A stretch of 64,000 nucleotides of DNA from Promethearchaeota archaeon (GTDB lineage: Archaea > Asgardarchaeota > Lokiarchaeia > Sigyniarchaeales > SOKP01). The first letter of the stretch is position 1, and each line of letters begins with the position of its first letter. Below the pieces are notes generated by a model. That model searched no databases. It was given only the letters and a program-made list of their open reading frames with translations, and had not been told where the DNA came from. The position numbers were made by a program, and so were the translations under genes. Shown here in pieces: positions 432 through 62,090 of the stretch. Location of the stretch: the NCBI GenBank assembly GCA_048940805.1, contig JBHLOF010000004.1, positions 33,946 through 97,945 on the forward strand, written 5' to 3'.

Positions 432-654
432 CTTTACCATCAAATATTAAAAGATTTAATAAAATTCAAGATAATTTTAGTCTTTTTCATTTTAATTTTC
501 AATAGATCATCTAAATGTGATGGAATATCCAAGCTCGATTCTAGTAATAATATAAATTCTTTTTATATATGGTTTCTTAGAAACTTTAAAATTTAATTTT
601 TGAATAAAATATCTTGAAATCTAACAAAATTAATCATATTTTAGTGAAGAAAAT

Positions 655-1575
655 ATGAAAATGAAGGTCAATGCCAAAAAAATGGTTTTAATGATAATAG
701 GAATCCTTTTTGTTCTATCTCTGATGAATCCATTTAGTTTTAATCTTGCTCTTACTGTAAAGGAAAACAATAATTTCAATTTAAATCATGTACAATTGAA
801 GATTTCAGCAATTTCGGGAAGAATACACATTAATAACAATTGGTCTGATAGTAAAACAGCGGGAATATGTACTGGTTCAGGGACAGAATCCGATCCTTAT
901 ATTATAGAAAATTTAGAAATAGATGGACAGGGATTAGGAAGTTGTTTACTGATCGAAAACTCTAATGCCCATTTTAAGATTCAAAATTGTTATTTCAATA
1001 ATACTGGGAGTAGTTATTATGATGCGGGGATTAAATTAGATTATGTAGATAATGGTCAATTGCTAAATAATAATGCAACAGGTGAAGCATTTGGATTTTT
1101 TTTAAATAACACAAATACCATTCTTATTGTAGGAAATCGATTAACGGCTAAAAGAGGTTTATATATTGGAACTAGTTCTGGAACCATTATGTATCTCAAC
1201 GATCTTATAGGACAACAGCTGGATATGTTTATTGCAATAAGAGACGAATCTGCCTATAGGTTTTTTTCGCCTAAAAAGGCAATCTATACGTATAAAGGAA
1301 ATACATTCACACAATATCTTGGGAATTATTGGTCAGGTGATATTAGCAATTCTGATAATAATAATGATGGTATTGGAGATACTCCTCAGATTTATTATGA
1401 TTCATATGATCAACTTATTGATCGGTATCCATTGACAGACCAAGTTAAAAATTATGAAATAACGAGTTTTACGGAAGGATCTGAAGGTATGATCCCAGGA
1501 TATAATCCATTCTTACTGATTGCAATAATGAGTATAATATCGGTATTTTTACTTAAAAAAGTAAGAAAATCATAA
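655..1575 (+). CDS. secreted/surface right-handed beta-helix (NosD / pectin-lyase-fold-like) protein with C-terminal membrane anchor
   Basis: N-terminal hydrophobic signal/TM ('MVLMIIGILFVLSL'). Repetitive 'N-x-N/G' beta-helix-like rungs ('LLIENSNAHFKIQNCYF', 'GFFLNNTNTILIVGNRL'). 'DNNNDGIGDTP...DRYPL' motif typical of NosD-like repeats. C-terminal TM plus basic tail ('LLIAIMSIISVFLLKKVRKS'). Confidence 0.55.
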   Translation: MKMKVNAKKMVLMIIGILFVLSLMNPFSFNLALTVKENNNFNLNHVQLKISAISGRIHINNNWSDSKTAGICTGSGTESDPYIIENLEIDGQGLGSCLLIENSNAHFKIQNCYFNNTGSSYYDAGIKLDYVDNGQLLNNNATGEAFGFFLNNTNTILIVGNRLTAKRGLYIGTSSGTIMYLNDLIGQQLDMFIAIRDESAYRFFSPKKAIYTYKGNTFTQYLGNYWSGDISNSDNNNDGIGDTPQIYYDSYDQLIDRYPLTDQVKNYEITSFTEGSEGMIPGYNPFLLIAIMSIISVFLLKKVRKS

Positions 1576-4312: not shown

Positions 4313-6916
4313 TTGAGTGTCAACTTAGAGATTAATAAAGAGTTTTTAGAGGACTTCCAGAAAAAAATTATCATAGCACGTAAATTACTGTTTTCTGCAA
4401 ATCATAAATGGGCGTCAAAATTACTCGATAATTTAGGTATGGCAATCGAGAAAAACGATTGGCTAGACATACAGAAAAAGCATCAATTAAATATGATCAT
4501 TTCGAATTCATGGTGGATTTATTTAAATTCTCTGGTAAAAAGAAAAGAGGGAAAAGTTGAAATCGACCTTATAAGGTATATTGATGCATATAAACGATTT
4601 TTCGCCTTTTTAACAAGTTTAGATGATTCTTATTTATTTTATAATTTTGGAATAAATCTTCTTATGCAATTTATTACGATGGAGGATTTATCGCAGATTG
4701 GGATAACAAAATACATAAATTCCTTTTCTGTTGAGTTAGAAAAAAGAGAAGAATATCAAAAGTTAATCGAATTACAAATTTTATTAATACATTTAAGACA
4801 ATCAGTTAGTCCATCAGAGCATTTCCATCTAGGTATGGAGATTCTTGGAAAAACTATACTTAAATTAGAGCCCAGTAAGAGAGCATTATTTATTTATATG
4901 ATATTAGAAAATGTATGCATAAAATATCAACTTATGGAAGATTCTTCAGAATTCATTAAATCAATAGTTAAGATTATGATAAACCGCCTTCCACAATATC
5001 TAAAAAATGAATTTAGTGGTATCAGTAGGATCTCTATTAATGAGAGAAGTTTTAACACAATCATAATCGATCTTGAAGAAACAATTAATTATTTAAATGA
5101 TATTGGGGAATATCCTTGGATTATATTTATAATTAGAAATATATTTTCAAAAATAAAAGATTACCAATCGTTTGGTGATGCAATAACATATATACGTAAA
5201 TTTATTGATTTCTCAATAAGGAGAAATCGATTTGAAATTGCGTTTGAAATCTATGATTTTTTGGAAGATCTTTTTATTTACCAAACAGACCTTTCTTATG
5301 ATAATATTTTGATCGAACTCTGGGTTGAAGCATGTAAAAAATTCGTAGATATGAAGGAGAAAAAGTATTTATTACAGTCTCTTGAAAAATTGAATAATCA
5401 TCTAAAGATACCTCAAACAAGTGCTGAAATTTTTCATTATTTTTATACCTGTGATAAACTGTGGCAATTTAAATCAATGTTCTTTTCATTAGAGCAACGA
5501 GATTTCTGGAGAATGATGTTTTATCGAGCTTTATTCGAGGAAAAAAACTTTAACATTGCTCAGAAAATCGTTCCTTATCTTGATAAGGATTTAGGATCAT
5601 TATTATCCGATATAATTTCACTATCTAAAGAGGCAGAATCCTTTAAGGAAAAGATATACTCATTTGGCACGGAGGAAGATTTTCGTGTATTAGATGATAA
5701 AAATTTCGTAATAAAAGATATAATAATTCGGATTAATTCAATTGGGATAATTTCATATAGAATAAATTCGACTAATAACCAAATTGTTGAAGGAACTTTA
5801 AGGAGAGAAACGTGGAATGACACCCAAATTATTGAAATTTATAATGAATTGTTTTCTGAACCAGAAAAACGAAAATTTACATTCACTTTACATGAATTTG
5901 GTGAAATATTATACATTTTTTTACCAAAATTAATCCGAGATTTCTTCAAATCTTTTAAAATAAAAAGTTTGAATATAGTACCCCAAATTTATTTTATACT
6001 TGATAGTATGACTATACCATTTGATTTAATTTATGATAATAATTTCTTTTTATTAAAATATTCAAGTGGGTATAAAATTGGAGAGATCCCTCTTGGAGGC
6101 ATAGCATTTGAACATGAATCTTTGATAAAATCTCCTTCAGTATCCTCCTCAACAAAACATAATGTCTTAATTGTTGATTCAATAAATTCTAAAATACCGT
6201 TGAGATGGAATGAAGAACTCCAAAGAAAGGAATTAATCTATCCGTTCTCAGCGGGAGCAAATGAATTGAATTATATTGTAGATTTTTTCAATAAAATTAA
6301 TGAAATCGACCAAATTAAAACACTTATCGGGCCTTCTTCAACTAGGGATGCAATTTTGACTCACGTTACAAAAGATCTTTACCATATAATTGTCATCGTT
6401 GGAAATATCTTCTATTCAAAATGGAGTCCTAAAGATAGCTTTTTTTTAACAAATGATAATGAAACTATAACTTTCAGTGAACTGTGTAGTTACTTGCATC
6501 GAAAGGATGCAAAAATTCATCCCTTTTTATTTTTTAATGCCCAAATTTTTGATATTGAGGGTCAAAAATTAAGAAATGTTGTAAGACCTTTTGGTGAAAT
6601 TATCTCACAATTTAACCAAGATGAAATTACCGGTATAATTGTAAGACCATATCCATTATTTAATGAAGAAACAAAAGAAATTATTTCCCAATTTTTTCTT
6701 AATCTCCTTAGAAATGCAAGTCAAGGAGTATCTCTTCTTAAAGCCCGTCAAAAATGTATAGCAAATAAAATGGAAAAAATGGTAGAAGACCAATTTAAAG
6801 ATACATCTATGGAGGGTGGAAGTGTAAGAATCGATTTAAGAAGTAGTTTGGCCGTCTCAAGCTATTTACTTTTTGGAAAACCATGGAAAAAATTAAATTC
6901 TGAATCAAGGATATAA
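4313..6916 (+). CDS. large helical-repeat (TPR-like) protein with C-terminal CHAT-like (caspase-fold) domain lacking the catalytic dyad
   Basis: 867 aa. The C-terminal ~290 aa follow the CHAT layout: 'IYFILDSMTIPFDLI', 'LIGPSSTRDAILTHV..YHIIVIVGN', 'PFLFFNAQIF', and 'GIIVRPYPLFNEETKEIISQFFLNLLRNASQGVSLLKARQ'. It starts 19 nt after the actin-like gene. Confidence 0.6.
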   Translation: MSVNLEINKEFLEDFQKKIIIARKLLFSANHKWASKLLDNLGMAIEKNDWLDIQKKHQLNMIISNSWWIYLNSLVKRKEGKVEIDLIRYIDAYKRFFAFLTSLDDSYLFYNFGINLLMQFITMEDLSQIGITKYINSFSVELEKREEYQKLIELQILLIHLRQSVSPSEHFHLGMEILGKTILKLEPSKRALFIYMILENVCIKYQLMEDSSEFIKSIVKIMINRLPQYLKNEFSGISRISINERSFNTIIIDLEETINYLNDIGEYPWIIFIIRNIFSKIKDYQSFGDAITYIRKFIDFSIRRNRFEIAFEIYDFLEDLFIYQTDLSYDNILIELWVEACKKFVDMKEKKYLLQSLEKLNNHLKIPQTSAEIFHYFYTCDKLWQFKSMFFSLEQRDFWRMMFYRALFEEKNFNIAQKIVPYLDKDLGSLLSDIISLSKEAESFKEKIYSFGTEEDFRVLDDKNFVIKDIIIRINSIGIISYRINSTNNQIVEGTLRRETWNDTQIIEIYNELFSEPEKRKFTFTLHEFGEILYIFLPKLIRDFFKSFKIKSLNIVPQIYFILDSMTIPFDLIYDNNFFLLKYSSGYKIGEIPLGGIAFEHESLIKSPSVSSSTKHNVLIVDSINSKIPLRWNEELQRKELIYPFSAGANELNYIVDFFNKINEIDQIKTLIGPSSTRDAILTHVTKDLYHIIVIVGNIFYSKWSPKDSFFLTNDNETITFSELCSYLHRKDAKIHPFLFFNAQIFDIEGQKLRNVVRPFGEIISQFNQDEITGIIVRPYPLFNEETKEIISQFFLNLLRNASQGVSLLKARQKCIANKMEKMVEDQFKDTSMEGGSVRIDLRSSLAVSSYLLFGKPWKKLNSESRI

Positions 6917-9782: not shown

Positions 9783-12700
9783 TCAAGCAAATTTTTCTTT
9801 CCACTCATCTAACGCATCAAGAAATTCTTTTTTGACTTTGTCTTCTAATATAGACCTTGTGGATCTTAATCGGCTAATCCATTGTCTTATTACATTTGCA
9901 GTAACAGCACCATGAGATTTCAATACTATATCTGAAATTTCTTGAAGGGAAATTGATAATATATTCCCTGGTGAAAGTTCTGTGTCTTGAATCAATTTAT
10001 CAATTAAAGAACTTAATCTACTACCACTATTAAAAGAGATTTCCAAATCTGGACTTTCAATTGAAGGCCCAAAATCTAATGATTGATTATTCTCATCTTC
10101 CTTAACGTATTTTTCTTTCCACTTGAAAAACACCATTACAAAATCTTCTTTAATCTCGCCACTGAGTGGATTCTTGATTTTACGGAGTTTGCTAACCCAA
10201 TCTTTTATATCTTTTAGAATCACAGAATATCCTTCTGTTTCCAAAATAATATCAACTATATTTTGCATACATTTACTGATGTCAATTCCACTTAATTCTG
10301 AGAAATTTTTTTCAATAGTCTCAAAATTTTCTCTTAATTCTGATGAAGGATCCTTCTTACTTGATTCTACGCTTCCAGTTATAGGCGAAATATTGTCATC
10401 TGTTTGGAATTGAGATTGAGACAAACCAGGACTAAAATATTCTTCTTCATAAACAGAAATTGAATTTTCTGCCTTTGATTTAGAAGCTGAAGGATTAATA
10501 GAAGACTGATCAACTCTTGATGAGTCACTTGGATGAGTGTGATTCAATATTCCCCATTTCCACCTTAATAAATCACTTTTAATTTGTTCTCTCTTTGATT
10601 CTTCCAAGATTTCATCGGTATCTGTCAAATTTTTCTTCCATTTGATAATTTGGGGATATCCTTGTAATTCTAGAACTACTTCAACTAATTTTTCAATCTG
10701 TTCTTTTAATTCTTTCTCGCTAAATTCTCCTATTTTTTTAAGAAAGATTTCAAATGTTTTATTGATTTTATCGGGATCGACCGTTTCAACTTTATATTCT
10801 TCCGAAATCATTTCCTCCTCTAAATCTTTTTGAACTCGTTCTTCGATTAGGGGGGGTCGGAATTCAGGGGGATAAATTAATTCAGTAGAGGAAAATTCAC
10901 TATTCAATCTATTAAGTTCATTAATAACATATTCTTTCAATTCATCAGATAAGGGAGTAAAAAGCTTCTCTATTTTTCCAATCAGTAATTTAAGCTCTAA
11001 TAAGTTAAGCGAGATTCCATTATTTTCAAAAGCAACGTCTAATAGCTTTTTTAATCTTTTAGCTATTTTTCTACCGGAATATTCATTTATATTTTCAATA
11101 ACTTCATTAAATCCTTTATTAATTTGGACATCTCTAGAAGGAAGAGCTTCATTTTTAATTTTAGATACAATTGGAATAAATAGATCAATCAACGGCCTAA
11201 AAGTAGTGTAAAAGCCGATTATATCATAATAAGGTTTCTGATCAATTTTTTGAAAAATTCCAAAAACCAAGTATGATTTATCCCCCAAAATCGCAATTGA
11301 TTTATTATCTAATAATCTTAAATAATCAAAATTTGGCTTTTCCCTAATAGCTGATGCATATTTGTTATTATGATCTTCCGATGAAATAAATGTGATATGT
11401 GGACCCATGTAATCAACTTTTTTATTCATTATTTTCTCTAAAGAAGATTTTTCTAATTCATTATTATCAGATGAATTTTCTGTTGTTTCTTCTATCTCCA
11501 CCTCTACTTTTAGAGTATATTCTTTTTTCCACTTTTCTATATGTTCTAAAAGTAAATACTGAGTATTTGAATCTAAATGTTTTCTAATGACTAACAACCT
11601 ATTTAACCACCCTTGTATGCTCTCGATAACTACCGATTCAGGATGAATTTCAGATATTTTTGACAATACTTCAGCAATATGATGACTGATTTCAAATCCT
11701 TTAAGCTCAGATACTTTTTTTGATACATTATCTAGCATTTGTTCAAATTCTTGCTTATGCTGCTTTGAAATGGATAGTTGTTTTTTCTGAGGTTTTTGAG
11801 GTTTAGTCTGAGTTTTCTCGCTTAGTGAAAATTCACTTTTTGTTTCAGCAAAAGAATCTAGATTTAATTTCTCTAGTGGAATAAAATTTGATAAACTGGG
11901 AACGATGATAGTTAACTCCTCTGTCGATTTATCAATTAAGATTGACACAATCTCTCTAATTTTCTCATAACTACTCACAGACAATAATTTCTCAAACACA
12001 AAACCATCGTTGCTGATGTAATCAGTTAGAATGTTGTATAATGACCTTTCTAACTTTTCAAATTTTCGAGCACTCAAGGAACTCTGTCCACCAGGTTTAA
12101 GAGAGAGTTCATTTATTCTTTTGTTAAGTGATTCACCTAAGTTTCTAATGAAGGTCTTAAAAGCATCAACTTGTTGAGGATTATCTGGATTCTCCATATC
12201 TTTTACGATAGCTCTAAATTGGGAAAACATATTTCCTGCAATTTCTTCAGATTCACTTACTTTTTTCTTAACAGCTGTGATCAACTTATTAATATCTCTA
12301 GCATCTATGGCTGACTGATTCTTTAGTGGGGTAATTAATTTGATTATATCAGTAAGGATTACTTCAGCAAACTTCTTAACATTTAGTTCAACTTCAGATA
12401 AAACTTCAGTTGTCTGACTGGTGTTGCTCTGATCGCATGTAGCATCAAGTAAATCTTGACTGATTCTTTCGAGATCTTGAAATAAATCATCTTGAAATTT
12501 TTCTAGATTTGAATCTTGCTTTACTTCATTTTTTTGAGCTTCAGAGGATTCTTCTATTAATTCTGTTATACTATTTAATATAGCCGCAATAGGGGGAATT
12601 GTAACATAATGAGGTAAAGAAGATGATGTCTGAAGGAGTAATTTTTTCTCAACAAGATTATCAATAATTTGTTGTATCTCTTCTTCTGATTGTTCACTCA

Positions 12701-12806
12701 TCATAGCTTTTATTTCATCCAAAGTTAGAGGAACTTTTCTCATACTCTCAGAATAAAGCTTAATTTCTTTATCAGAAAGATTAAACGATTTCAAAAGGGC
12801 TCTCAT
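9783..12806 (-). CDS. 1007-aa TrmB-like winged-helix protein with coiled coils, TrmB-C-like segments and four copies of a ~55-aa two-Trp repeat module
   Basis: N-terminus 'FNLSDKEIKLYSESMRKVPLTLDEIKAMM..IIDNLVEKKLL' matches the TrmB-type wHTH pattern. Internal repeats are listed in the findings. Confidence 0.6.
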   Translation of the reverse strand: MRALLKSFNLSDKEIKLYSESMRKVPLTLDEIKAMMSEQSEEEIQQIIDNLVEKKLLLQTSSSLPHYVTIPPIAAILNSITELIEESSEAQKNEVKQDSNLEKFQDDLFQDLERISQDLLDATCDQSNTSQTTEVLSEVELNVKKFAEVILTDIIKLITPLKNQSAIDARDINKLITAVKKKVSESEEIAGNMFSQFRAIVKDMENPDNPQQVDAFKTFIRNLGESLNKRINELSLKPGGQSSLSARKFEKLERSLYNILTDYISNDGFVFEKLLSVSSYEKIREIVSILIDKSTEELTIIVPSLSNFIPLEKLNLDSFAETKSEFSLSEKTQTKPQKPQKKQLSISKQHKQEFEQMLDNVSKKVSELKGFEISHHIAEVLSKISEIHPESVVIESIQGWLNRLLVIRKHLDSNTQYLLLEHIEKWKKEYTLKVEVEIEETTENSSDNNELEKSSLEKIMNKKVDYMGPHITFISSEDHNNKYASAIREKPNFDYLRLLDNKSIAILGDKSYLVFGIFQKIDQKPYYDIIGFYTTFRPLIDLFIPIVSKIKNEALPSRDVQINKGFNEVIENINEYSGRKIAKRLKKLLDVAFENNGISLNLLELKLLIGKIEKLFTPLSDELKEYVINELNRLNSEFSSTELIYPPEFRPPLIEERVQKDLEEEMISEEYKVETVDPDKINKTFEIFLKKIGEFSEKELKEQIEKLVEVVLELQGYPQIIKWKKNLTDTDEILEESKREQIKSDLLRWKWGILNHTHPSDSSRVDQSSINPSASKSKAENSISVYEEEYFSPGLSQSQFQTDDNISPITGSVESSKKDPSSELRENFETIEKNFSELSGIDISKCMQNIVDIILETEGYSVILKDIKDWVSKLRKIKNPLSGEIKEDFVMVFFKWKEKYVKEDENNQSLDFGPSIESPDLEISFNSGSRLSSLIDKLIQDTELSPGNILSISLQEISDIVLKSHGAVTANVIRQWISRLRSTRSILEDKVKKEFLDALDEWKEKFA

Positions 12807-41513: not shown

Positions 41514-43271
41514 TTGTTATTTATGGAAAAAGGAGACGATAGAAAAGAGCTTAAACTCGATTTTTCTAAATCTCGAAGATTTTTTGAGCAAGAAGGGAGT
41601 TCTCGGGTAATTACATCTGGTTCTCTTAATATGTTTTTTGCTTTAATAAATGCTAGTTGTATTTGGATTTTTATAATATTTGCTACAGGATGGGAAGGTC
41701 TAAAATATTTTGGACTTACAACAGCCATAAACGGTATCGTATCATTAATAGGTATTGGTATCTCAAGATATTTCATTGCTGAAATCAAAACAGCATTCAT
41801 TATTGATGAAGAATTAGGAAAGCTGAAAGGTACTACTTATTCCAAAATTTTATTTTTGATTGGTTTAACATTAGGAGTAGCTATGATAACAATGCCTTTT
41901 TCATTAGGGACTGTTATAACTAACCAGTTATTAAGAGATTGCATTTTTGCCTCTGGATTTTCATCTATTTTATTATATATTAATTTTGTATTTCAAATTG
42001 GTTTAGAAATTAAGAATAGATACGATATTACAGCGTTTCTTTCCATTTTTAATGGGATGTTCCTATTGGGGTGGGGATTCCTTTTTATGACTTTTAACTT
42101 TAATCCTTTTTGGTTCGCTTTTTATCCATTTTTTAATATCACAACCACATTTCTATTAGCTTTTTTTTTTATTAGAGTTGCTCCCTATTCAGTTAAAGAT
42201 ATAACTCACGCAGGATTAAGAACAAGAACAATGAAGAAAAGAGCTTCTCCAAACGTTAGAAAATTGATTGAAGAACATCAAATATGGTTGTATATAAAAA
42301 ATTCACTTTTCTCTATGCTTACTAATATCCAAAATTCTAGATTTTTTGAAGATATCCTATTTTTCTTCGCTGCGATATATTTAGCAATTTTTACTGGTCC
42401 TGCCTATCAAGGTTATGCGTTGAGTTTATTAACCGTCTTGATGACATATGGGTCGGTTAAAACAGTAATACTCTATTATTCAGCACCGTTAAATATTGAA
42501 ATTGCAGAAGCTTGTGTTAAAGACAAACATGAAACTATTGAAGCTTCTATTAATGATTCAACTAGAATTTCAAGTATCTTAGCTTTTGGTTTCCTAACTG
42601 CACTGGTAGCTCTTGCGAGAGAATTGTTACTCTATTTACATCCTGACTTGTTTTATGATGGTGGAGTCCTTAATTCAGCTAATTATTCTCTGGCTCAAAT
42701 TTTATTTCTTCTTATCATATTAGGTCAGTTTATTTATGGATATTCAACGTTATTCGGAAATGCATTAATAGGATCAGGAAATGCTAAATTAGCGGCTCGG
42801 GGATTTCTAATAACTTTTTTAATAATATCTGCATTATCCCCAGCGTTTATTCTATTTTTCGGACTTTTGGGTATAGGTATTGTAATGTTAATCTCATCGT
42901 TGTTCTTATTACCTTATGTGATAATTCAACTCAAAAACAAGCTTAATATCCGTTACAAGCTTAGGATTTATCGATTAATCCCTAATTTGTTAATTCTTTT
43001 CATTATTTTATGGGTTTTTCCATTCATTAATATTATTACGCTCTTTTTTGGCATAATTATAGGAGCAATAATATATTTATTATTAAATCCATTCTTTGGA
43101 GTATCAATTCCAGAGGATTTGCAAATGATTAACGATTTATTCACTACACTAAGGCTGAGTTTTGTAGGGGATTTGATTGTTAACACAATGAAGAGAACAT
43201 ATAATTTCAGTCCATTAAATAAGGATAAAATTGTATCTGAAAAAAATAAGTTAATTTTGGTAATGAAATAA
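41514..43271 (+). CDS. polytopic membrane protein, possibly MOP-superfamily (Wzx/MATE-like) flippase
   Basis: ~12-14 hydrophobic segments over 585 aa. The likely start is ATG 41523. Family assignment is weak. Confidence 0.45.
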   Translation: MLFMEKGDDRKELKLDFSKSRRFFEQEGSSRVITSGSLNMFFALINASCIWIFIIFATGWEGLKYFGLTTAINGIVSLIGIGISRYFIAEIKTAFIIDEELGKLKGTTYSKILFLIGLTLGVAMITMPFSLGTVITNQLLRDCIFASGFSSILLYINFVFQIGLEIKNRYDITAFLSIFNGMFLLGWGFLFMTFNFNPFWFAFYPFFNITTTFLLAFFFIRVAPYSVKDITHAGLRTRTMKKRASPNVRKLIEEHQIWLYIKNSLFSMLTNIQNSRFFEDILFFFAAIYLAIFTGPAYQGYALSLLTVLMTYGSVKTVILYYSAPLNIEIAEACVKDKHETIEASINDSTRISSILAFGFLTALVALARELLLYLHPDLFYDGGVLNSANYSLAQILFLLIILGQFIYGYSTLFGNALIGSGNAKLAARGFLITFLIISALSPAFILFFGLLGIGIVMLISSLFLLPYVIIQLKNKLNIRYKLRIYRLIPNLLILFIILWVFPFINIITLFFGIIIGAIIYLLLNPFFGVSIPEDLQMINDLFTTLRLSFVGDLIVNTMKRTYNFSPLNKDKIVSEKNKLILVMK

Positions 43272-53893: not shown

Positions 53894-54688
53894 TTGAAGA
53901 AAAGAATGTTTCTATTATCTTTCACTCTTATTGTAATTGTATCAAGTGGATTAATTTCTAAAGTATATGCTGGAAATTTTAATTTAGGTGTAAGACAAAA
54001 TGAGAATATAATTTGGAAGTGTGGGGTTTGTAATAAAGCTGAAATGGAAAACGTTTTTGGAATGGGATGGGATAATTCCGGAGTATTTAAAAATTTGAAT
54101 AAGGGAATGAGAATGAAATGGAAAATAAATTCAACTGAAATAAATAATACTATATTTACCATTAAATATGACATTTGGAACTGGAACTTAAATCAAGAAT
54201 GGGGGGTAAAGGATAATACTTCTCAAGTCAATATCTATGTAAATCCTATGGAATATTCGACGAACCTCTCATTTTTAAATTATACATCTCTTGTACCATT
54301 TTTTCTTCCTATTCCAATAGGAGCGTATATCGGTGGTTTAAGTTTGAAACTAAATGAATGGTATGATATTGATAATAGAGTACTCCCTACGATAAATGTT
54401 GAGATTTTCAAGGATGGTATTAATCCGGGCTATCCTAATAAGAACATTAAGATAGTTGCTATTTACAATGATTACGGGGTATTGAATTCATATAAACTAT
54501 ATGGAAAAGATAACACAGTTATTATTGATATTTATTTAGATTTCTTACCCTTTTATGTAATACCCACATTAATTATTCTAGTTGCTGCATTATTAATAGG
54601 TTTAGGATACTATCTATTTAGAAATAGAATTCATATTATTAACTCTTGTAGGAATAATGAAAAGGAAAATAATTTTACCACAGATTAA
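53894..54688 (+). CDS. type-I membrane-anchored surface protein, sequon-rich
   Basis: Signal peptide 'MKKRMFLLSFTLIVIVSSGLISKVYA' and C-terminal TM 'VIPTLIILVAALLIGLGYYLF'. At least five N-x-S/T sequons lie in the ectodomain. Confidence 0.5.
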   Translation: MKKRMFLLSFTLIVIVSSGLISKVYAGNFNLGVRQNENIIWKCGVCNKAEMENVFGMGWDNSGVFKNLNKGMRMKWKINSTEINNTIFTIKYDIWNWNLNQEWGVKDNTSQVNIYVNPMEYSTNLSFLNYTSLVPFFLPIPIGAYIGGLSLKLNEWYDIDNRVLPTINVEIFKDGINPGYPNKNIKIVAIYNDYGVLNSYKLYGKDNTVIIDIYLDFLPFYVIPTLIILVAALLIGLGYYLFRNRIHIINSCRNNEKENNFTTD

Positions 54689-55937: not shown

Positions 55938-56658
55938 ATGGAAATAATTCCAGCTATAGATATTAGTAATGGAAAATGTGTTCGACTGTTTAAAGGTAAG
56001 AAGGGAACAGAAAAGATATATTTCGAAGATCCTATTGAGGCATTAGATTTTTGGGTTGAAAAAGGTGCGAAAAGGTTGCATTTTATTGATCTTGATGGCG
56101 CATGGGGCTCAAATGTAAATAATAACTTATTACATAAGATGATTAAAAGAAGCTCTAAGAAGGTAAAGATTCAAATAGGAGGAGGAATCAGAAGTGTAGA
56201 AACGGCTTTAAAATTAATTAAGATTGGTGCTGATCGTGTAATTATCGGGACTTTAGCGATCCAAAATCCGGAAGGCATAAAAGAAATGCTGGTAAAAATA
56301 GGGAAGGAAAAAATTATTGTAGCAATTGACTATAAAAAAGAAAGAGTTGCCATCAAAGGATGGACTGAATTTTCGAATAAAGATCCATTTTCTTTTGGGA
56401 AAGAATTGGAGGAATTGGGCATCAAATTCATTCTTTTTTCCTCTATTGAAGCAGATGGAACCTTAACGGGTCCGGATTTCCAAAATATTAAAAAGATGGT
56501 CGAAAACGCTAGTAAAACTTCAATTTATGTTGCGGGGGGGAATAAGCAATATTTCAGATCTAATTAAATTAGAAAGTATTGGTGTGAAAGGAGTTATAAT
56601 TGGAAAAGCATTTTACGAAAATTCCTTACCATATTCTATAATCAAAAATTCTAAATAG
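55938..56658 (+). CDS. hisA: HisA (ProFAR isomerase), reading frame interrupted at a G7 run
   Basis: 'IIPAIDISNGKCVRL' and 'LHFIDLDGA'. The ORF track ends at 56567. Frame +1 from the G7 run (56534-56540) encodes the expected C-terminus 'GGISNISDLIKLESIGVKGVIIGKAFYENSL', ending at 56658. Confidence 0.8.
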
Positions 56659-57477: not shown

Positions 57478-57627
57478 AAAAATCCAATAACTATAATAAT
57501 AAAAAAATTAATTATTTCTCAATTATTCATTAAAAGAAGAAATAATAAAATTGGACTCTATAAATATTTTAAGCTGAAGTTTCTTTATATTTATATAGTC
57601 AATAACGATGCAAACGGGTTTAAAATT

Positions 57628-60000
57628 ATGAAATGCTTATACTGTGAGAACCAGAAAGTCGATTATACTTGCGAAAAATGTAAATCCAGTTTTTGCATTA
57701 ATCATATTGCCTCAACCGAAATTCACGAGTGTAAAAAGCATAATATTATTTATTCTAAAGCAAAAGCAGCAGAACGAAATTTTAAATGTACTATAGTTGA
57801 AGATAGTGCGTGCCCTGTTTGTAAATCACTTTTAAGATTGGAAAGATTATCTTCAGGACAATATTATTTAGAGTGTACTAACCCTCAGTGTCCTGATTCA
57901 TGGAATTCTTATTCTAAAACACCAGGATTGTTTTTTCCTTCTAAGGAAAAATTAGCAAGAGAAGCATTGAGATATAATCTAGTAAAAGGAAATAGATTGT
58001 TATTATGCGGAAAGAGATTACGACATATAATTGGAAAAGAAGTTTGTCCTAATTGTTTCCTAGATTTATTAAAAAGAGCTACTCTCACAAATTTCTCTAC
58101 AATTATGGAGTCATTTAATATAACAGCAGACCAGATGATTAAATTCATAAATAAGTATATGGAAGAAGAGAGAATTTATGGTATAATTGACCAGAAAAAC
58201 CAAATGTTTTATTATATATCCCCCGAAATGAGGGAAAAGATACTCTCTAAATTTAACGATGAGGGAATCATCAAAGTTGAAGATTTAGCTGCTATGTTGG
58301 ATATGAGTAGTGAAATTGCACGTAACGTTATTTATAAATTAATAAGCCAATATCAGATTAAAGGGTCATTTTCACAAGATAAGCTCACCTATTATACCCA
58401 AAAATACATTATGGATAATTTGATTGAAAAAATCAAGAAGAAAGGAAGAGTTTCGTTGAAACATCTTGCAAACGAATTTGATCTTCCAAAAGAACTTGTA
58501 AAATCATTTTGTGTTAATTTGATGAGAGCCAAAGCAGTTAATAGTTATTTTGCTGATAGAGGTAACGAAGTTATTACCGCAGCTCAAATCCATAAGGAAA
58601 TTAAAGCATACTCAAAAGACACGGGATTATTTGAATTAAATAAACTTGCTTCTAAGTTGAAAATCGCCGTTGAACTTGCTAGAAAGAGCTTACATGAACT
58701 CATTAAAACGGGGAAGATAAAAGGTATCTTCACTCAAAGAAGAGAATTTATGACTTTTAAACATCTAGAATCAAAAATTAAAGATCTCGCAAGGGCATAT
58801 AGAACGATGCCATTAAGAGAACTTTCAAACAGACTTGGGGTTACTGAATCAAGTATTGAGGAAAATTTAGCAGCAGTTATTGCACGAGGAGATATAGACG
58901 GATATATAGACATGTCGAAAAGAACCTTTGTGGCATATTCAGTACCAATTGACGATAAAACAATTGCTAAGCCACAAATTACAAAAGCTTCACCCAAAGG
59001 TAACGTAGAGGTAGTTCGTGAATATGATTTCATTGGAGGTCAATTACATATGAAGATTGCCGTTCGAAATAAGAGTGATATGGCAATAAATTCTGTGAAA
59101 GTTATCTTAGATGCCCCCTCAAGTTACAATGTAAAAAATCCACTAATAAACATCCCGGTAATTGAAGCTCAAAATTCTCGAGGTGTAGATTTTTATTTAG
59201 AACCAAAAGAATGTGGAATATCATCAATTGGTGGAGATGTAATCTACAAGACAGCATCAGGAGAGAAAAACACAGTACATATCAGAAGGAAAGAAGTTCA
59301 AATTAAATGCCCTCTTGTGGTATCATGTTTAGCAACCATCGAAGATGTCCAGATTGCAATAGCAGATCTTCCAAATGATGCCCGTGCTTTTTTAATAGCC
59401 GATCTAGATCCACGATTAGCATTTAGAGCGGCAGTGAGAACAATTAAGCGCTTCGAAGTAAGTGCAGTAACATCCCATGAAGGTAAAGATCCTAAGGGAA
59501 AGTATGAAGCCGAAGCATGGTTCTGTAGTGAAGCAAAAGTCGGCGGAGGGAGAATAGTGACTCGGATCTTTGTTTCTGAGACAAATCAATCACTGGAAGT
59601 TAGAGTTTGGTGCGGGGAGGCTGGTCAACTTACTGGATTCTTAGCAAAAGTGATCGAATTATTATTTGAAGAGATTAACATTATCCGTAAGATTAGATCC
59701 GAAGAACGTGAAAAAACTATTGATGTTATGGCGATTACACAAAATTTAGCAGAAATATCTGACTATTGTATGCTCAGATGGAAAGCCCAAAATATAAGAA
59801 ATAAATTACATGATACTTTTGTACGAGTCAGGAAAATTCTTGGGAATGATGGGGATGCAGTTTTAGGTAGGATGGAATTTTGGCTTACAGAACTTAATAA
59901 ATACGGGAAAGACGATAAGATCTCTGATGACAATGCAGATAAACTAGTGAATGATGTCGAAAATTTCAAAACTGTCATTGCCCGTTCAATAAAATTATGA
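57628..60000 (+). CDS. 790-aa protein: AN1-like zinc finger, zinc ribbons, five tandem PCI-like winged helices, C-terminal beta-sandwich/alpha domain
   Basis: C3-x2-C-x8-C-x2-C-x4-C-x2-H-x6-H-x-C at the N-terminus, then 'CPVCKS...CTNPQC' and 'CPNC'. Five WH-like units follow at 60-aa spacing, for example 'RIYGIIDQKNQMFYYI' and 'ARGDIDGYIDMSKRTFVAY'. Confidence 0.6.
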   Translation: MKCLYCENQKVDYTCEKCKSSFCINHIASTEIHECKKHNIIYSKAKAAERNFKCTIVEDSACPVCKSLLRLERLSSGQYYLECTNPQCPDSWNSYSKTPGLFFPSKEKLAREALRYNLVKGNRLLLCGKRLRHIIGKEVCPNCFLDLLKRATLTNFSTIMESFNITADQMIKFINKYMEEERIYGIIDQKNQMFYYISPEMREKILSKFNDEGIIKVEDLAAMLDMSSEIARNVIYKLISQYQIKGSFSQDKLTYYTQKYIMDNLIEKIKKKGRVSLKHLANEFDLPKELVKSFCVNLMRAKAVNSYFADRGNEVITAAQIHKEIKAYSKDTGLFELNKLASKLKIAVELARKSLHELIKTGKIKGIFTQRREFMTFKHLESKIKDLARAYRTMPLRELSNRLGVTESSIEENLAAVIARGDIDGYIDMSKRTFVAYSVPIDDKTIAKPQITKASPKGNVEVVREYDFIGGQLHMKIAVRNKSDMAINSVKVILDAPSSYNVKNPLINIPVIEAQNSRGVDFYLEPKECGISSIGGDVIYKTASGEKNTVHIRRKEVQIKCPLVVSCLATIEDVQIAIADLPNDARAFLIADLDPRLAFRAAVRTIKRFEVSAVTSHEGKDPKGKYEAEAWFCSEAKVGGGRIVTRIFVSETNQSLEVRVWCGEAGQLTGFLAKVIELLFEEINIIRKIRSEEREKTIDVMAITQNLAEISDYCMLRWKAQNIRNKLHDTFVRVRKILGNDGDAVLGRMEFWLTELNKYGKDDKISDDNADKLVNDVENFKTVIARSIKL

Positions 60001-60071: not shown

Positions 60072-60494
60072 ATGTCGCCAATTATCTCTGTATCTTTGAA
60101 TGAAAGCCTTAAGAAATTTATTAATAAATTAATCTCGAAAAATCAATATGAAAATAAATCAAAACTAATAAGAGATGCACTGCTAAGATTAATGTCAACA
60201 GTGGATATCTCTAATATTGATGATATTAGCGATACTACACCGTATCAAACTCAAAAAAGTATCATCGGTAACATGATTATGGTTGCTCCTAATGATTCTA
60301 CTATTCAAAAAAAGATAAACAGAATAGAAAATGAATTTAAGGATCAAATCGTCAGTAAAAATCAAAATTTTGTGGATCACAGTGTCGTAATTTTCATGAT
60401 ATTTGAGGGAAAACTTCAAGATTTTCAAAAACTCGTTGTTGAAATAAATAGTATTGAAGAACTCAAAAATTTCAGATATTTAATTATTAATTAA
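60072..60494 (+). CDS. ribbon-helix-helix (CopG/NikR-like) regulator with ACT-like C-terminal domain lacking the His-rich Ni site
   Basis: 'IISVSLNESLKKFINKLISKNQYENKSKLIRDALLRL' is an RHH. The C-terminal ~80 aa are NikR-C-like in layout but His-poor. Confidence 0.55.
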   Translation: MSPIISVSLNESLKKFINKLISKNQYENKSKLIRDALLRLMSTVDISNIDDISDTTPYQTQKSIIGNMIMVAPNDSTIQKKINRIENEFKDQIVSKNQNFVDHSVVIFMIFEGKLQDFQKLVVEINSIEELKNFRYLIIN

Positions 60495-60573: not shown

Positions 60574-60933
60574 ATGGGAAAAAATAAGTATGGAAAAGGA
60601 TATCAAAAAGGTGGAAAATCTCCAGCTAGTGGATCTAATAAAGAGGGAGATCCCATACGTGGAGGGAAGATAAAGGCAAGCCATATCTTAGTTGAAAAAT
60701 ATAGTAAATCCCAAGAAATATATGAAGATCTCGAGGCTGGAGATAATTTTCAACAACTTGCTCAAAAATTTTCTACTTGTCCTAGTAAGAAAAGAGGGGG
60801 AAATTTAGGTGAATTCTCAAAAGGGGATATGGTTCCAGAGTTTTGGAATGCGTGCACTAAACTAAAACTGGGTGAAATTTCCCAGCCTGTAAAAACTAAA
60901 TTCGGATATCATATTATAAAACGAACTGGTTAG
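60574..60933 (+). CDS. parvulin-type peptidyl-prolyl isomerase with Gly/Lys-rich N-terminal extension (Par14-like)
   Basis: 'KASHILVEK', 'GGNLGEFSKGDMVPEF' and 'PVKTKFGYHIIKR'. The N-terminal 33 aa are 'MGKNKYGKGYQKGGKSPASGSNKEGDPIRGGKI'. Confidence 0.9.
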   Translation: MGKNKYGKGYQKGGKSPASGSNKEGDPIRGGKIKASHILVEKYSKSQEIYEDLEAGDNFQQLAQKFSTCPSKKRGGNLGEFSKGDMVPEFWNACTKLKLGEISQPVKTKFGYHIIKRTG

Positions 60934-61394: not shown

Positions 61395-62090
61395 ATGGAT
61401 AATATTTTACCAGTATTAACGAAAATGGAAAGGATGATGGAAATTGTGCTGAATAAAGATATAATCCTTGAATTGAGCGAGCTCCTTACCAAACTTATTT
61501 ATAATTTAAAAAAGGGTAATGAGTATCGTGAACTATTTACCCTACTGAAAAATTTGTATGATTCGATTGGTTATTATACTTATGATGAGTTAGAACCCAA
61601 GGAGGTTATTAGTTATTCCTTATGGCTAGCTGTAGGGTTAAAACAGAGATTTTATTCTTTAGATGATTCTCGGTTAATTGAGCGTGTAAAAGACCTGACG
61701 ATAAAAATCAACAAGTATATAGAAGATGTTCATGGGCTTAGTAACCTGATAGTGGTTCCCGAGTGGCCCGAAGGACTTACCGAGAAAGATCAAATGGAAC
61801 GAGACATTAAGATAATCACGTGGCGTTTTGGAAGTTGTCTTGCTATATGCCTTCGTGCAGGAGGGAGTAAAAGGGATAGATTTATCCAATTTCTATTTGA
61901 ATTTTTTGATTATCTTAATAAAGGACTCTATAGTTCTCAAGGAATAAGCATAATTGAAGAGAATCTCTCTCATTTTGAGAAAAGACTTGAAAATGAGTTC
62001 GACGTATTAGATTTTCTTGATGAATCACTTAAGATCATCAAAGGGGAGTACAACTTTACTGTTAATAAACTTAAAGAAATATTTGATTAG
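61395..62090 (+). CDS. hypothetical all-helical protein
   Basis: 231-aa ORF with no recognised motifs. Confidence 0.4.
   Translation: MDNILPVLTKMERMMEIVLNKDIILELSELLTKLIYNLKKGNEYRELFTLLKNLYDSIGYYTYDELEPKEVISYSLWLAVGLKQRFYSLDDSRLIERVKDLTIKINKYIEDVHGLSNLIVVPEWPEGLTEKDQMERDIKIITWRFGSCLAICLRAGGSKRDRFIQFLFEFFDYLNKGLYSSQGISIIEENLSHFEKRLENEFDVLDFLDESLKIIKGEYNFTVNKLKEIFD

What the first reader, a model, noticed from the sequence alone, without database searches (positions are those of the whole stretch)
57628..60000. Giant AN1-like zinc finger / 5x winged-helix / beta-sandwich protein
The N-terminus (aa 3-35) has C-x2-C-x8-C-x2-C-x4-C-x2-H-x6-H-x-C. That is within one residue per spacer of the AN1 zinc-finger pattern, C-X2-C-X(9-12)-C-X(1-2)-C-X4-C-X2-H-X5-H-X-C. 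Two further CxxC...C..C ribbons follow.

Aa ~155-438 (nt ~58090-58941) then contain five winged-helix-like units at a strict 60-aa period. Each ends in a PCI/ESCRT-II-like 'h-x-G-x-h-D/x...h-h-h' wing. Examples are 'ERIYGIIDQKNQMFYYI', 'QYQIKGSFSQDKLTYYT', 'TGKIKGIFTQRREFMTF' and 'ARGDIDGYIDMSKRTFVAY'.

Aa ~460-565 read like an Ig or appendage-type beta-sandwich ('LHMKIAVRNKSDMAINSVKVILDAP...VIEAQNSRGVDFYLEP'). AN1 fingers and tandem PCI-type WH domains are building blocks of eukaryotic ubiquitin/proteasome and ESCRT-II machinery. I do not recognise this combined architecture as described.
Basis: partly seen in the sequence, partly recalled or inferred. Interest (0 to 1): 0.75.

Follow-up and report, generated by a model that had tools for sequence, protein, structure and literature searches.

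The report
Known Asgard zinc/winged-helix/appendage/Vps28-C adaptor
This 790-residue protein is a real, highly conserved Lokiarchaeial "eukaryote-like" scaffold (zinc module, five UFL1/PCI-type winged helices, adaptin-like appendage, Vps28 C-terminal bundle), but the architecture is already catalogued (asCOG cog.003822) as a putative ESCRT-linked adaptor, so it is not new.

Summary

- The Cys/His pattern is present.
- There are five winged helices at a strict 60-aa period. Pfam matches: PCI 5.5e-26, DDRGK 1e-15, UFL1 2e-14. The best fold match is the human UFL1-DDRGK1 array.
- A beta-sandwich follows. Together with an alpha/beta "platform" it matches whole adaptin/COPI appendage domains.
The top PDB hits of its profile are all Vps28 CTDs.

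The AN1 call is only weakly supported. zf-AN1 is the commonest Pfam hit but always sub-threshold. The AN1-specific His33 is Trp in 47 of 78 species, whereas His/Cys38 is conserved. The confident 153-aa zinc-module model (pLDDT 92.5) has no significant structural neighbour.

The novelty claim fails. Liu et al. 2020/21 and Makarova et al. [quoted passage not shown] The published contig has the same NikR/parvulin neighbours.

The gene occurs at 65-87 % identity in at least 80 Asgard species genomes and has no conserved operon.

Most likely function (inferred): a soluble ESCRT-II-docking adaptor, an ESCRT-0/I analogue.

The parts
57585..57598 (+). TATA-like element TTTATATTTATATA, 30-43 nt upstream of the ATG. 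Putative own archaeal promoter.
   Evidence: Read directly from the sequence. Inference only, because such motifs are common in 30 % GC DNA.
57628..60000 (+). Complete ORF, 790 aa plus stop. Member of asCOG cog.003822 (NCBI name 'PCI domain-containing protein').
57628..57747 (+). aa 1-40: AN1-like eight-ligand (presumably cross-brace) zinc finger. The conserved ligands are C3, C6, C15, C18, C23, H26, C35 and H38. H33 is not conserved.
57748..58047 (+). aa 41-140: rest of the compact zinc module. It holds the ribbon C62/C65/C83/C88 and most of a second invariant Cys set, C54/C127 (plus C140/C143 at the start of WH1). aa 1-153 fold as one confident unit.
   Evidence: (pLDDT 92.5, pTM 0.76)
58048..58221 (+). 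WH1 (aa 141-198). Its first helix carries C140/C143.
58222..58398 (+). WH2 (aa 199-257)
58399..58578 (+). WH3 (aa 258-317), basic (pI 9.6)
58579..58755 (+). WH4 (aa 318-376), basic (pI 10.1). Carries the invariant wing motif GIFTQRREF.
58756..58941 (+). WH5 (aa 377-438), the best Pfam PCI stretch (aa 383-436)
58942..59004 (+). aa 439-459: poorly conserved, low-confidence hinge (23 % mean identity against 69-81 % elsewhere)
59005..59307 (+). aa 460-560: Ig-like beta-sandwich, the appendage proximal subdomain. Conserved motifs are REYDFxGGQ, RGVDFYLEP.ECG and IKCPL.
59308..59682 (+). aa 561-685: alpha/beta 'platform' subdomain (TBP-like per the literature). Modelled at low confidence.
59683..59997 (+). 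aa 686-790: Vps28 C-terminal-domain-like helical bundle

Best explanation
**Identity (shown).** The gene encodes a soluble, basic, 790-aa modular scaffold that is near-universal and strongly conserved in Lokiarchaeia (Promethearchaeia). It is a member of the published family asCOG cog.003822. Its parts, in order:
1. A compact multi-zinc N-terminal module. It holds an AN1-like eight-ligand finger, a zinc ribbon and a further four-Cys site.
2. Five tandem 60-aa winged helices of the PCI/UFL1/DDRGK1 type.
3. A variable hinge.
4. A bipartite adaptin/COPI-like appendage (Ig sandwich plus platform).
5. A Vps28 C-terminal-domain bundle.

**Mechanism (inferred).** The constant C-terminal cassette is the docking end. 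Vps28-C binds ESCRT-II, as it does in eukaryotes, and the appendage acts as a hub for short-motif partners. The zinc module plus WH array is the family-specific recognition end for a cargo or partner, which could be protein, ubiquitin-like, or RNA/ribosome. The protein would thus feed a particular client into the Asgard ESCRT/membrane-remodelling machinery without canonical ESCRT-I, as a functional analogue of ESCRT-0/I adaptors.
For: **Domains**
- WH array: Pfam PCI 5.5e-26, DDRGK 1e-15, E3_UFM1_ligase 2.2e-14.
- WH array fold: Foldseek hits 8b9x (UFL1-DDRGK1) at E = 2e-11 with TMt 0.66-0.68, and UFL1 on the 60S ribosome at 2.6e-9.
- Appendage fold: Foldseek hits the AP2 alpha and beta2 ears, the gamma-COP appendage and the BBSome at E = 1e-6 to 1e-4, over about 235 columns that span both subdomains.
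- Vps28-C: the isolated aa 686-790 scores 27.0 bits against a gathering score of 24.5. The four best PDB hits of the family profile are all Vps28 CTDs (2j9w, 3.8e-5).

**Modularity**
- More than 100 representative proteins of 300-2100 aa share only the aa ~450-700(+) cassette. Their N-termini differ: Zn ribbons, HTH/PCI, NHL, NosD, TPR, Ras/Roc, TIR.
- The zinc module is only ever seen fused to the WH array.
- The hinge is the only unconserved stretch.

**Constraint and spread**
- Identity to the window protein is 65-87 % in at least 80 species genomes.
- It is 74 % identical to the Loki_b31 orthologue, as high as the best-conserved neighbouring enzymes.

**Literature**
- cog.003822 carries this exact description, and the published contig has the same NikR/parvulin synteny.
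- Makarova et al. 2024 propose that Vps28-C/appendage proteins bind ESCRT-II and act as ESCRT-0 analogues.
- Liu et al. 2020 predict 'ubiquitin-dependent membrane remodeling'.
Against: - No experiment exists for any member of the family.
- There is no conserved operon and no ubiquitin or ESCRT neighbour, in the window or in distant orthologues.
- The platform subdomain was modelled at pLDDT 45-60. The appendage matches have TMt of only 0.3-0.37 with high rmsd.
- At sequence level the appendage signal is sub-threshold, and a profile search of PDB sequences found no adaptin.
- That Asgard Vps28-C binds ESCRT-II is extrapolated from eukaryotes.
- The client of the Zn/WH end is unknown.
Confidence: 0.55

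Rival explanations
1. A UFM1-independent forerunner of the UFL1/DDRGK1 scaffold. The WH array, with its basic WH3/WH4, and the zinc module bind the large ribosomal subunit or another RNP. They either scaffold transfer of a ubiquitin-like modifier or simply tether ribosomes to membrane or ESCRT factors.
For: - The best structural and sequence neighbours of the WH array are UFL1-DDRGK1, including ribosome-bound UFL1.
- Picchianti et al. 2023 infer that UFL1 and DDRGK1 originate in Asgard and pre-date UFM1.
- The protein is basic (pI 9.1), with WH3/WH4 at pI 9.6-10.1.
Against: - UFM1, UFC1 and UFSP2 are reported as exclusive to eukaryotes.
- No UFC1-binding N-terminal helix or partial-WH complementation is evident. 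All five WHs are complete, and the first is fused to the zinc module.
- The UFL1 C-terminal ribosome-binding domain is replaced by the appendage plus Vps28-C.
- Sequence identity to UFL1-DDRGK1 is only 16-18 %.
Confidence: 0.17
2. A ZFAND/Cuz1-like proteostasis adaptor. The N-terminal AN1-type finger recruits the proteasome or Cdc48/p97 to clients held by the rest of the protein.
For: - zf-AN1 is the commonest Pfam hit of the finger, in 12 of 12 N-termini.
- The best whole-domain PDB match is the AN1 finger of the Cdc48-associated protein Cuz1, followed by ZFAND1.
Against: - All AN1 scores are below Pfam's threshold, and zf-HIT scores as well.
- The AN1 H-x-C ligand pair is not conserved.
- No AN1 structure appears in the fold search.
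- The finger is an integral part of a larger 153-aa module that has no known analogue.
Confidence: 0.1
3. A DNA-binding transcription factor with five wHTH domains and zinc ribbons, as some automatic annotations imply (ArsR/Lrp/DeoR-type regulator).
For: - JGI names include 'ArsR/Lrp family transcriptional regulator'.
- Weak HTH_DeoR, FeoC and Lrp hits.
- A basic protein.
Against: - The significant hits are to the PCI/DDRGK/UFL1 WH families, which are protein/RNP scaffolds.
- The 'recognition' helices are near-neutral, with net charge -2 to +2.
- The C-terminal half is a trafficking-type cassette.
- There is no conserved target-gene neighbourhood.
Confidence: 0.05
4. A subunit or self-assembling core of a PCI-type complex (lid/CSN/eIF3-like). 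The WH beta-sheets would oligomerise as they do in PCI horseshoes.
For: - Pfam PCI is the strongest hit, with five stretches.
- PCI WHs mediate complex assembly (established knowledge; cited).
Against: - Only the WH part of the PCI profile is matched (positions ~29-82 of 84).
- No helical-repeat N-terminal halves exist between the 60-aa units.
- The units are tandem in one chain, like UFL1, rather than one per subunit.
Confidence: 0.06

Closest known systems
[quoted passage not shown] 2020/2021; Makarova et al. 2024, Table S2)
   Same: - The same domain order.
- The same lineage (Lokiarchaeia).
- The same downstream neighbours, NikR-family then parvulin.
- The LCGC14 orthologue P0094 is 77 % identical over the full length.
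   Different: Nothing architectural differs. This work adds detail: the ligand set of the zinc module, the five discrete WHs, the hinge, and conservation statistics.
Human UFL1-DDRGK1 winged-helix array (PDB 8b9x; 8qfc/8ohd on the 60S ribosome)
   Same: Tandem ~60-aa PCI-like winged helices forming a rod. This is the best fold hit (E = 2e-11, TMt 0.66-0.68), and Pfam UFL1 and DDRGK score above threshold.
   Different: - A single chain rather than a two-protein composite with a split WH.
- No UFC1-binding helix is recognisable.
- No UFL1 C-terminal domain.
- The host lineage lacks UFM1 and UFC1.
- It is flanked by a zinc module and an appendage/Vps28-C cassette.
Adaptin/COPI appendage ('ear') domains (AP2 alpha 1b9k/1w80, beta2 1e42/2iv9, gamma-COP 1pzd/1r4x) and BBSome GAE+platform
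   Same: A bipartite Ig-like sandwich followed by an alpha/beta platform, preceded by a flexible hinge. Foldseek gives E = 1e-6 to 1e-4 across both subdomains. There are weak Alpha_adaptinC2, GAE_BBS1 and Coatamer_beta_C hits.
   Different: - It is not attached to a HEAT/ARM trunk.
- Sequence similarity is sub-threshold.
- It has its own strongly conserved motifs, including two invariant Cys (C529, C561).
- The platform was modelled at low confidence.
Vps28 C-terminal domain (ESCRT-I; PDB 2j9w, 2g3k, 2j9u)
   Same: A C-terminal helical bundle of about 100 aa. It scores above Pfam's VPS28 threshold when isolated, and the profile's top PDB hits are all Vps28 CTDs.
   Different: It lacks the Vps28 N-terminal core (steadiness box) that builds ESCRT-I, so it is not a Vps28 orthologue.
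AN1 zinc fingers (ZFAND1/Cuz1, ZNF216; Pfam PF01428) and HIT fingers (PF04438)
   Same: Eight Cys/His ligands. The first six have AN1 spacing to within one residue, with an 'FC..H' core.
   Different: - Below Pfam's threshold.
- The last ligand pair is C-x2-[HC] rather than H-x-C.
- It is embedded in a 153-aa multi-zinc module that has no structural neighbour.
NCBIfam NF045535 'Sel_Asgard', putative selenocysteine system protein
   Same: Aligns end to end (positions 2-192 of 195) with aa 592-786, i.e. most of the platform plus Vps28-C.
   Different: 41 bits against the equivalog cut-off of 132. It is a distant stand-alone paralogue, not the same family.

Membership tests
asCOG cog.003822 (Asgard Zn / UFL1-like WH / Adaptin-C / Vps28-C protein) | Domain architecture: Zn-binding domains + UFL1-like WH region + adaptin-C + Vps28-C | tested here: met
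   description
asCOG cog.003822 (Asgard Zn / UFL1-like WH / Adaptin-C / Vps28-C protein) | Orthology to the Lokiarchaeum GC14_75 member, including shared synteny (NikR, parvulin downstream) | tested here: met
   P0094 (LCGC14) is 77 % identical over the full length. The gene order is the same.
zf-AN1 (PF01428) | Score at or above Pfam's gathering threshold (27.9 bits) | tested here: not met
   12.8 bits in the full protein and 18.8 bits isolated. The best of 12 diverse N-termini is E = 8.5e-4.
zf-AN1 (PF01428) | Conserved C-x2-C-x9-12-C-x1-2-C-x4-C-x2-H-x5-H-x-C ligand set | tested here: not met
   The first six ligands are conserved, with one spacer a residue short. The seventh (H33) is W in 47 of 78 species and Y/F/K/L in distant orthologues. 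The conserved alternative is H/C38.
zf-AN1 (PF01428) | AN1 fold | tested here: inconclusive
   The model is confident (pLDDT 92.5), but Foldseek finds no hit at E <= 1e-3 and no AN1 entry. Foldseek has little power on 40-aa zinc knuckles.
PCI domain (PF01399) | Pfam score above the gathering threshold | tested here: met
   91 bits against 22, with five stretches
PCI domain (PF01399) | Bipartite domain: a helical-repeat N-terminal half plus a C-terminal WH | tested here: not met
   Only profile positions ~29-82 of 84 (the WH part) are matched. AF2 shows back-to-back 60-aa WHs with no helical-repeat halves.
UFL1/DDRGK1 winged-helix array (PF09743, PF09756) | Pfam scores above the gathering thresholds, and structural similarity to the UFL1-DDRGK1 WH rod | tested here: met
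   54.2 against 23.2 bits and 58.3 against 27.8 bits. 8b9x at E = 2e-11, TMt 0.66-0.68.
UFL1 (UFM1 E3 ligase) | N-terminal UFC1-binding helix, and a partial WH completed by DDRGK1 | tested here: not met
   The N-terminus is a zinc module, and all five WHs are complete in one chain.
UFL1 (UFM1 E3 ligase) | Presence of the UFM1/UBA5/UFC1 cascade in the organism | not tested
   Only a 64-kb window is available. Picchianti et al. 2023 report UFM1, UFC1 and UFSP2 as exclusive to eukaryotes.
Adaptin/COPI appendage domain | Ig-like sandwich followed by an alpha/beta (TBP-like) platform | tested here: met
   Foldseek hits to the alpha, beta2 and gamma-COP ears cover about 235 of 240 columns at E = 1e-6 to 1e-4. 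Caveat: the platform has pLDDT 45-60 and TMt is 0.3-0.37.
Adaptin/COPI appendage domain | Sequence-family membership (Alpha_adaptinC2, B2-adapt-app_C, COP-gamma_platf) at the Pfam threshold | tested here: not met
   Only sub-threshold hits: GAE_BBS1 at 0.0098 in this protein, and Alpha_adaptinC2 in 4 of 14 relatives (best 4e-4). The profile found no adaptin in PDB sequences.
Vps28 (ESCRT-I) | C-terminal helical-bundle domain | tested here: met
   PF03997 at 27.0 bits against 24.5, over profile positions 89-180 of 188. The profile's top four PDB hits are Vps28 CTDs. AF2 helices have pLDDT 80-92.
Vps28 (ESCRT-I) | N-terminal core / steadiness box that binds Vps23 | tested here: not met
   The Pfam match covers only the C-terminal half of the VPS28 profile. 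The upstream sequence is the appendage.
Vps28 (ESCRT-I) | Binding of the C-terminal domain to ESCRT-II | not testable with these tools
   Needs interaction assays or multimer modelling

The most novel reading that the evidence does not exclude
The family is the surviving prokaryotic precursor of the UFL1/DDRGK1 ribosome-binding scaffold. In Lokiarchaeia it would physically couple ribosomes or another RNP, held by the Zn/WH end, to ESCRT-II-driven membrane remodelling, through the appendage/Vps28-C end. That would be a pre-eukaryotic link between translation quality control and membrane trafficking. Its N-terminal four-zinc module would be a previously undescribed fold.
Probability: 0.1. Interest if true: 0.75.

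Novelty: already known. Interest (0 to 1): 0.3.

Why it matters
The protein combines building blocks of four eukaryotic systems in one Asgard polypeptide: ubiquitin-like ligase scaffolds, PCI complexes, vesicle-coat appendages and ESCRT-I. It is therefore relevant to how eukaryotic trafficking and proteostasis machinery was assembled from domain modules.

It is near-universal in Lokiarchaeia and under strong purifying selection along its entire length, which argues for a core cellular role. That makes it a good experimental target in the cultured Lokiarchaeia.

As a discovery it is not new. The architecture has been in the asCOG catalogue since 2020 and was discussed again in 2024. What this analysis adds is modest:
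- The ligand set of the zinc module, and the fact that it is not a canonical AN1 finger.
- The lack of any structural analogue for that module.
- The hinge.
- The constant-cassette / variable-head logic of the superfamily.
- The link to the 'Sel_Asgard' family.

Tried and rejected
1. **Operon context as a functional clue: rejected.** The synteny GT87 - DsbD_2 - target - NikR-like - parvulin holds only among close Loki relatives. It is absent around the 41-42 % identical orthologues P0122 and P0123. No ubiquitin or ESCRT genes lie nearby.
2. **Fold test of AN1: uninformative.** The N-terminal model is excellent, but Foldseek gave nothing at E <= 1e-3. The best hit was dynactin p62, at 2.8e-3 with probability 0.54.
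3. **Profile of the appendage module against PDB sequences.** There were no adaptin hits, only a generic Ig domain of a GH20 enzyme.
4. **Stand-alone zinc modules: rejected.** P0246 is a split gene, because the next ORF continues into the WH array. P0158 is cut by a contig end.
5. **C2H2 zinc-finger hits of the N-terminal profile** (2i13, 5v3g, 1mey). These were dismissed as repeated matches to the short 'YKCxxCGKSF' string only.
6. **'Ribosomal protein S25', 'ArsR/Lrp regulator' and 'DUF2042' source names.** These are automatic labels triggered by the WH units. Ribosomal_S25 is below threshold.
7. **First genome-collection scan.** The scan with the 12-sequence alignment A2 failed because it had no conserved stretch. 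It was repeated with A8.
8. **tRNA scan of the window.** None were found.
Full report
**1. Observation**

The window is 27-35 % GC. It carries ordinary chromosomal genes: gyrA/gyrB, AspRS, GatA/GatB and class I LysRS. At 57628-60000 (+) there is a 790-aa ORF.

The five proposed winged-helix units align without gaps at a strict 60-aa period. Pairwise scores reach z = 13 against shuffles. Pfam's PCI model matches five stretches at E = 5.5e-26.

A full-length AlphaFold2 model was built on 99 family members (mean pLDDT 72.7). It shows:
- five H-E-H-H-E-E winged helices at pLDDT 80-90 (aa 141-438);
- a low-confidence hinge (aa 442-458);
- a sandwich of about eight strands (aa 460-559, pLDDT around 75);
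- an alpha/beta region (aa 570-685, pLDDT 45-60);
- three long C-terminal helices (aa 692-788, pLDDT 80-92).

**2. What the parts are**

*Winged helices.*
- Besides PCI, the DDRGK (1e-15) and E3_UFM1_ligase (2.2e-14) models score above their thresholds.
- The best PDB sequence hit is the DDRGK1-UFL1 fusion 8b9x.
- Foldseek's top hits for the model are 8b9x (E = 2e-11, TMt 0.66-0.68 over 255 columns) and ribosome-bound UFL1 (8qfc, 8ohd, 9gy4).
- Only the WH half of the PCI profile is matched, and there are no helical-repeat halves.
- The units are therefore PCI-type winged helices arranged like the UFL1/DDRGK1 rod. They are not complete PCI domains, and they are not generic MarR/TrmB HTHs.

*C-terminal cassette.*
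- After UFL1, the fold hits are the BBSome, the AP2 alpha and beta2 ears, and the gamma-COP appendage. They come in at E = 1e-6 to 1e-4, and each alignment covers essentially the whole bipartite appendage.
- At sequence level the signal is only sub-threshold: GAE_BBS1 in this protein, Alpha_adaptinC2 in 4 of 14 relatives, and Coatamer_beta_C once. A profile search of PDB sequences found no adaptin.
- The last 105 residues pass Pfam's VPS28 threshold when scanned alone: 27.0 against 24.5 bits, over profile positions 89-180 of 188.
- A 14-sequence profile of that region has Vps28 C-terminal-domain structures as its four best PDB hits, led by 2j9w at 3.8e-5.

*Zinc module.*
- C3, C6, C15, C18, C23, H26, C35, C54, C62, C65, C83, C127, C140 and C143 are invariant in 78 species-representative orthologues. 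They are also invariant in relatives down to 22 % identity. C88 is nearly so, being Asp in 4.
- Position 33, the His of the AN1 'H-x-C', is Trp in 47 of 78 species and His in 31. It is Y, F, K or L in distant orthologues.
- Position 38 is always His, or Cys in two distant relatives. That is a typical ligand exchange.
- The obligatory pattern is therefore C-x2-C-x8(10)-C-x2-C-x4-C-x2-H-x8-C-x2-[HC].
- All 12 diverse N-termini hit zf-AN1 more often than any other Pfam family, but never at threshold (best 8.5e-4). zf-HIT hits 8 of 12 at 7.2e-4, and B-box hits 7 of 12.
- The best whole-domain PDB sequence match is the AN1 finger of Cuz1 (5ij4, E = 0.012). ZFAND1, other AN1 entries and HIT fingers follow at E = 0.08-4.
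- With a more diverse alignment, aa 1-153 fold as one compact unit (pLDDT 92.5, pTM 0.76).
- Foldseek finds no significant neighbour for that unit. The best hit is dynactin p62 at 2.8e-3, and no AN1 entry appears.
- Conclusion: an AN1-related (AN1/HIT-class) eight-ligand finger with a shifted last ligand pair, embedded in a multi-zinc module. The module probably holds four zinc ions (inference), and as a whole it has no solved analogue. 'AN1-like' is a fair nickname, but AN1 membership is not shown.

**3. Family, distribution and context**

- The 90 %-cluster database returned 262 hits. The best 120 are mostly full length (about 788-791 aa; some are partial) and all 73-100 % identical. They are mostly named 'PCI domain-containing protein' from Promethearchaeota/Lokiarchaeota MAGs. 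Older names are DUF2042 and 'E3 UFM1-protein ligase'.
- A scan of one genome per GTDB species confirmed 140 loci. The best 80 are nearly all full length at 65-87 % identity, and all but one mislabelled record are titled as Asgard or uncultured-archaeon MAGs.
- Per-domain identity across species is uniform at 69-81 %, except for the hinge at 23 %.
- Against Loki_b31 the protein is 74 % identical. That is as conserved as the neighbouring fucose-isomerase-like enzyme (73 %) and parvulin (77 %). It is well above the GT87 glycosyltransferases (50-55 %) and DsbD_2 and NikR-like (61 %).
- The exhaustive search of 1.84 billion representatives found only three more full-length orthologue clusters, at 41-47 % identity.
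- The same search found more than 100 proteins of 300-2100 aa that share only the aa ~450-700(+) cassette. Their N-termini are Zn ribbons, HTH/PCI arrays, NHL, NosD, TPR, Ras/Roc or TIR.
- Helarchaeota proteins share the zinc module plus WH array but have another C-terminal half.
- The zinc module is never found alone.
- The neighbours are GT87, DsbD_2, a NikR-like gene and parvulin. They are syntenic in close relatives but not around the 41-42 % orthologues.
- The gene has its own TATA-like element and appears monocistronic.

**4. Comparison with what is known**

- Liu et al. (bioRxiv 10.1101/2020.10.19.343400; Nature 2021) describe Asgard proteins that fuse Vps28/Vps23 elements with adaptin/COPI C-terminal domains and E3 UFM1-protein ligase 1. 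They predict a role in 'ubiquitin-dependent membrane remodeling'.
- Makarova et al. [quoted passage not shown] It is followed by NikR and a parvulin, which is the gene order of this window.
- The same paper argues that Vps28-C/appendage proteins with TPR, Ig or HTH/PCI domains may bind ESCRT-II without core ESCRT-I and act as ESCRT-0 analogues.
- Picchianti et al. 2023 (PMC10183829) infer that UFL1 and DDRGK1 originate in Asgard archaea, while UFM1, UFC1 and UFSP2 are eukaryote-only.

**5. Mechanism**

*Shown:* domain identities, modular recombination of the cassette, the hinge, and strong constraint along the whole protein.

*Inferred:*
- The appendage plus Vps28-C cassette is a docking and hub end. 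Vps28-C would bind ESCRT-II as in eukaryotes, and the appendage would bind short motifs.
- The zinc module plus WH rod is the specific recognition end.
- I put about 0.95 on the identity and about 0.4-0.5 on the ESCRT-adaptor mechanism.

*Rivals:*
- A UFM1-independent UFL1/DDRGK1-like ribosome or RNP scaffold. It is supported by the best structural neighbour and by the basic WH3/WH4.
- A ZFAND/Cuz1-like proteasome or Cdc48 adaptor.
- A PCI-complex core.
- A DNA-binding regulator. This is the least likely, given near-neutral recognition helices and the trafficking-type C-terminus.

**6. Verdict**

It is, however, already catalogued and discussed. The increments here are the non-canonical ligand set, the apparently novel fold of the zinc module, the conservation statistics, and the homology of aa 592-786 to NCBIfam 'Sel_Asgard'. 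Interest 0.3; novelty: already known.

Noticed in passing
window 55938-56650: The hisA-like ORF (Pfam His_biosynth, 4.7e-62) ends prematurely at 209 aa. Its conserved C-terminus 'GGISNISDLIKLESIGVKGVIIGKAFYE' continues in the +1 frame. This is a frameshift, so either a pseudogene or an assembly indel.
   Followed up: partly
window 59401-59985 (aa 592-786 of the target): NCBIfam NF045535 'Sel_Asgard, putative selenocysteine system protein' (195 aa) aligns end to end with most of the platform plus the Vps28-C region. E = 1.8e-10, but 41 bits is far below its 132-bit cut-off. That Asgard Sec-associated protein therefore looks like a stand-alone paralogue of this cassette.
   Followed up: partly
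protein P0219 (representative search hit): A 359-aa protein with an N-terminal TIR_2 domain (2.9e-16) followed by two tandem Vps28-C-like bundles. This is an unusual fusion of a TIR domain with an ESCRT-type module.
   Followed up: no
proteins P0136 and P0138 (Helarchaeota, 723-724 aa): They share the same zinc module and WH array as the target. Their C-terminal half is different: a region with the motif 'DLVSGFLQAISSFGSE', followed by further UFL1/DDRGK-like winged helices.
   Followed up: partly
window 59212-59214 and 59308-59310 (C529, C561): Two cysteines in the sandwich ('ECG' and 'KCPL') are invariant in all orthologues. They are nearly invariant across the whole appendage-cassette superfamily at 20-30 % identity. 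They could form a structural pair or a functional site, and this is not a feature of eukaryotic ears.
   Followed up: no
L060 (DATKTW010000042.1): A 72 %-identical full-length orthologue sits on a contig labelled 'Candidatus Nanopelagicaceae bacterium', an actinobacterial family. This is almost certainly a mis-binned or mislabelled MAG.
   Followed up: no
L006, L013, L015, L027 and proteins P0011, P0053, P0062 and others: Orthologues more than 80 % identical to the window protein carry NCBI labels of different Asgard phyla (Hod-, Hermod-, Thor-, Odin-, Heimdallarchaeota).
   Followed up: no
window 4313-6916, 9783-12806 (-), 41514-43271: Three large ORFs (867, 1006 and 585 aa) have no Pfam hit at E <= 1e-5. 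The 231-aa ORF at 61395-62090 and the 264-aa ORF at 53894-54688 also have none at E <= 0.01.
   Followed up: no
window 60072-60494 and 60574-60933: A NikR-like gene (RHH + NikR_C) and a parvulin PPIase follow the target, in the same order as in Lokiarchaeum GC14_75. In Loki_b31 an Fe-S gene is inserted between them. The linkage is lost in distant orthologues, so it is probably just inherited synteny.
   Followed up: yes
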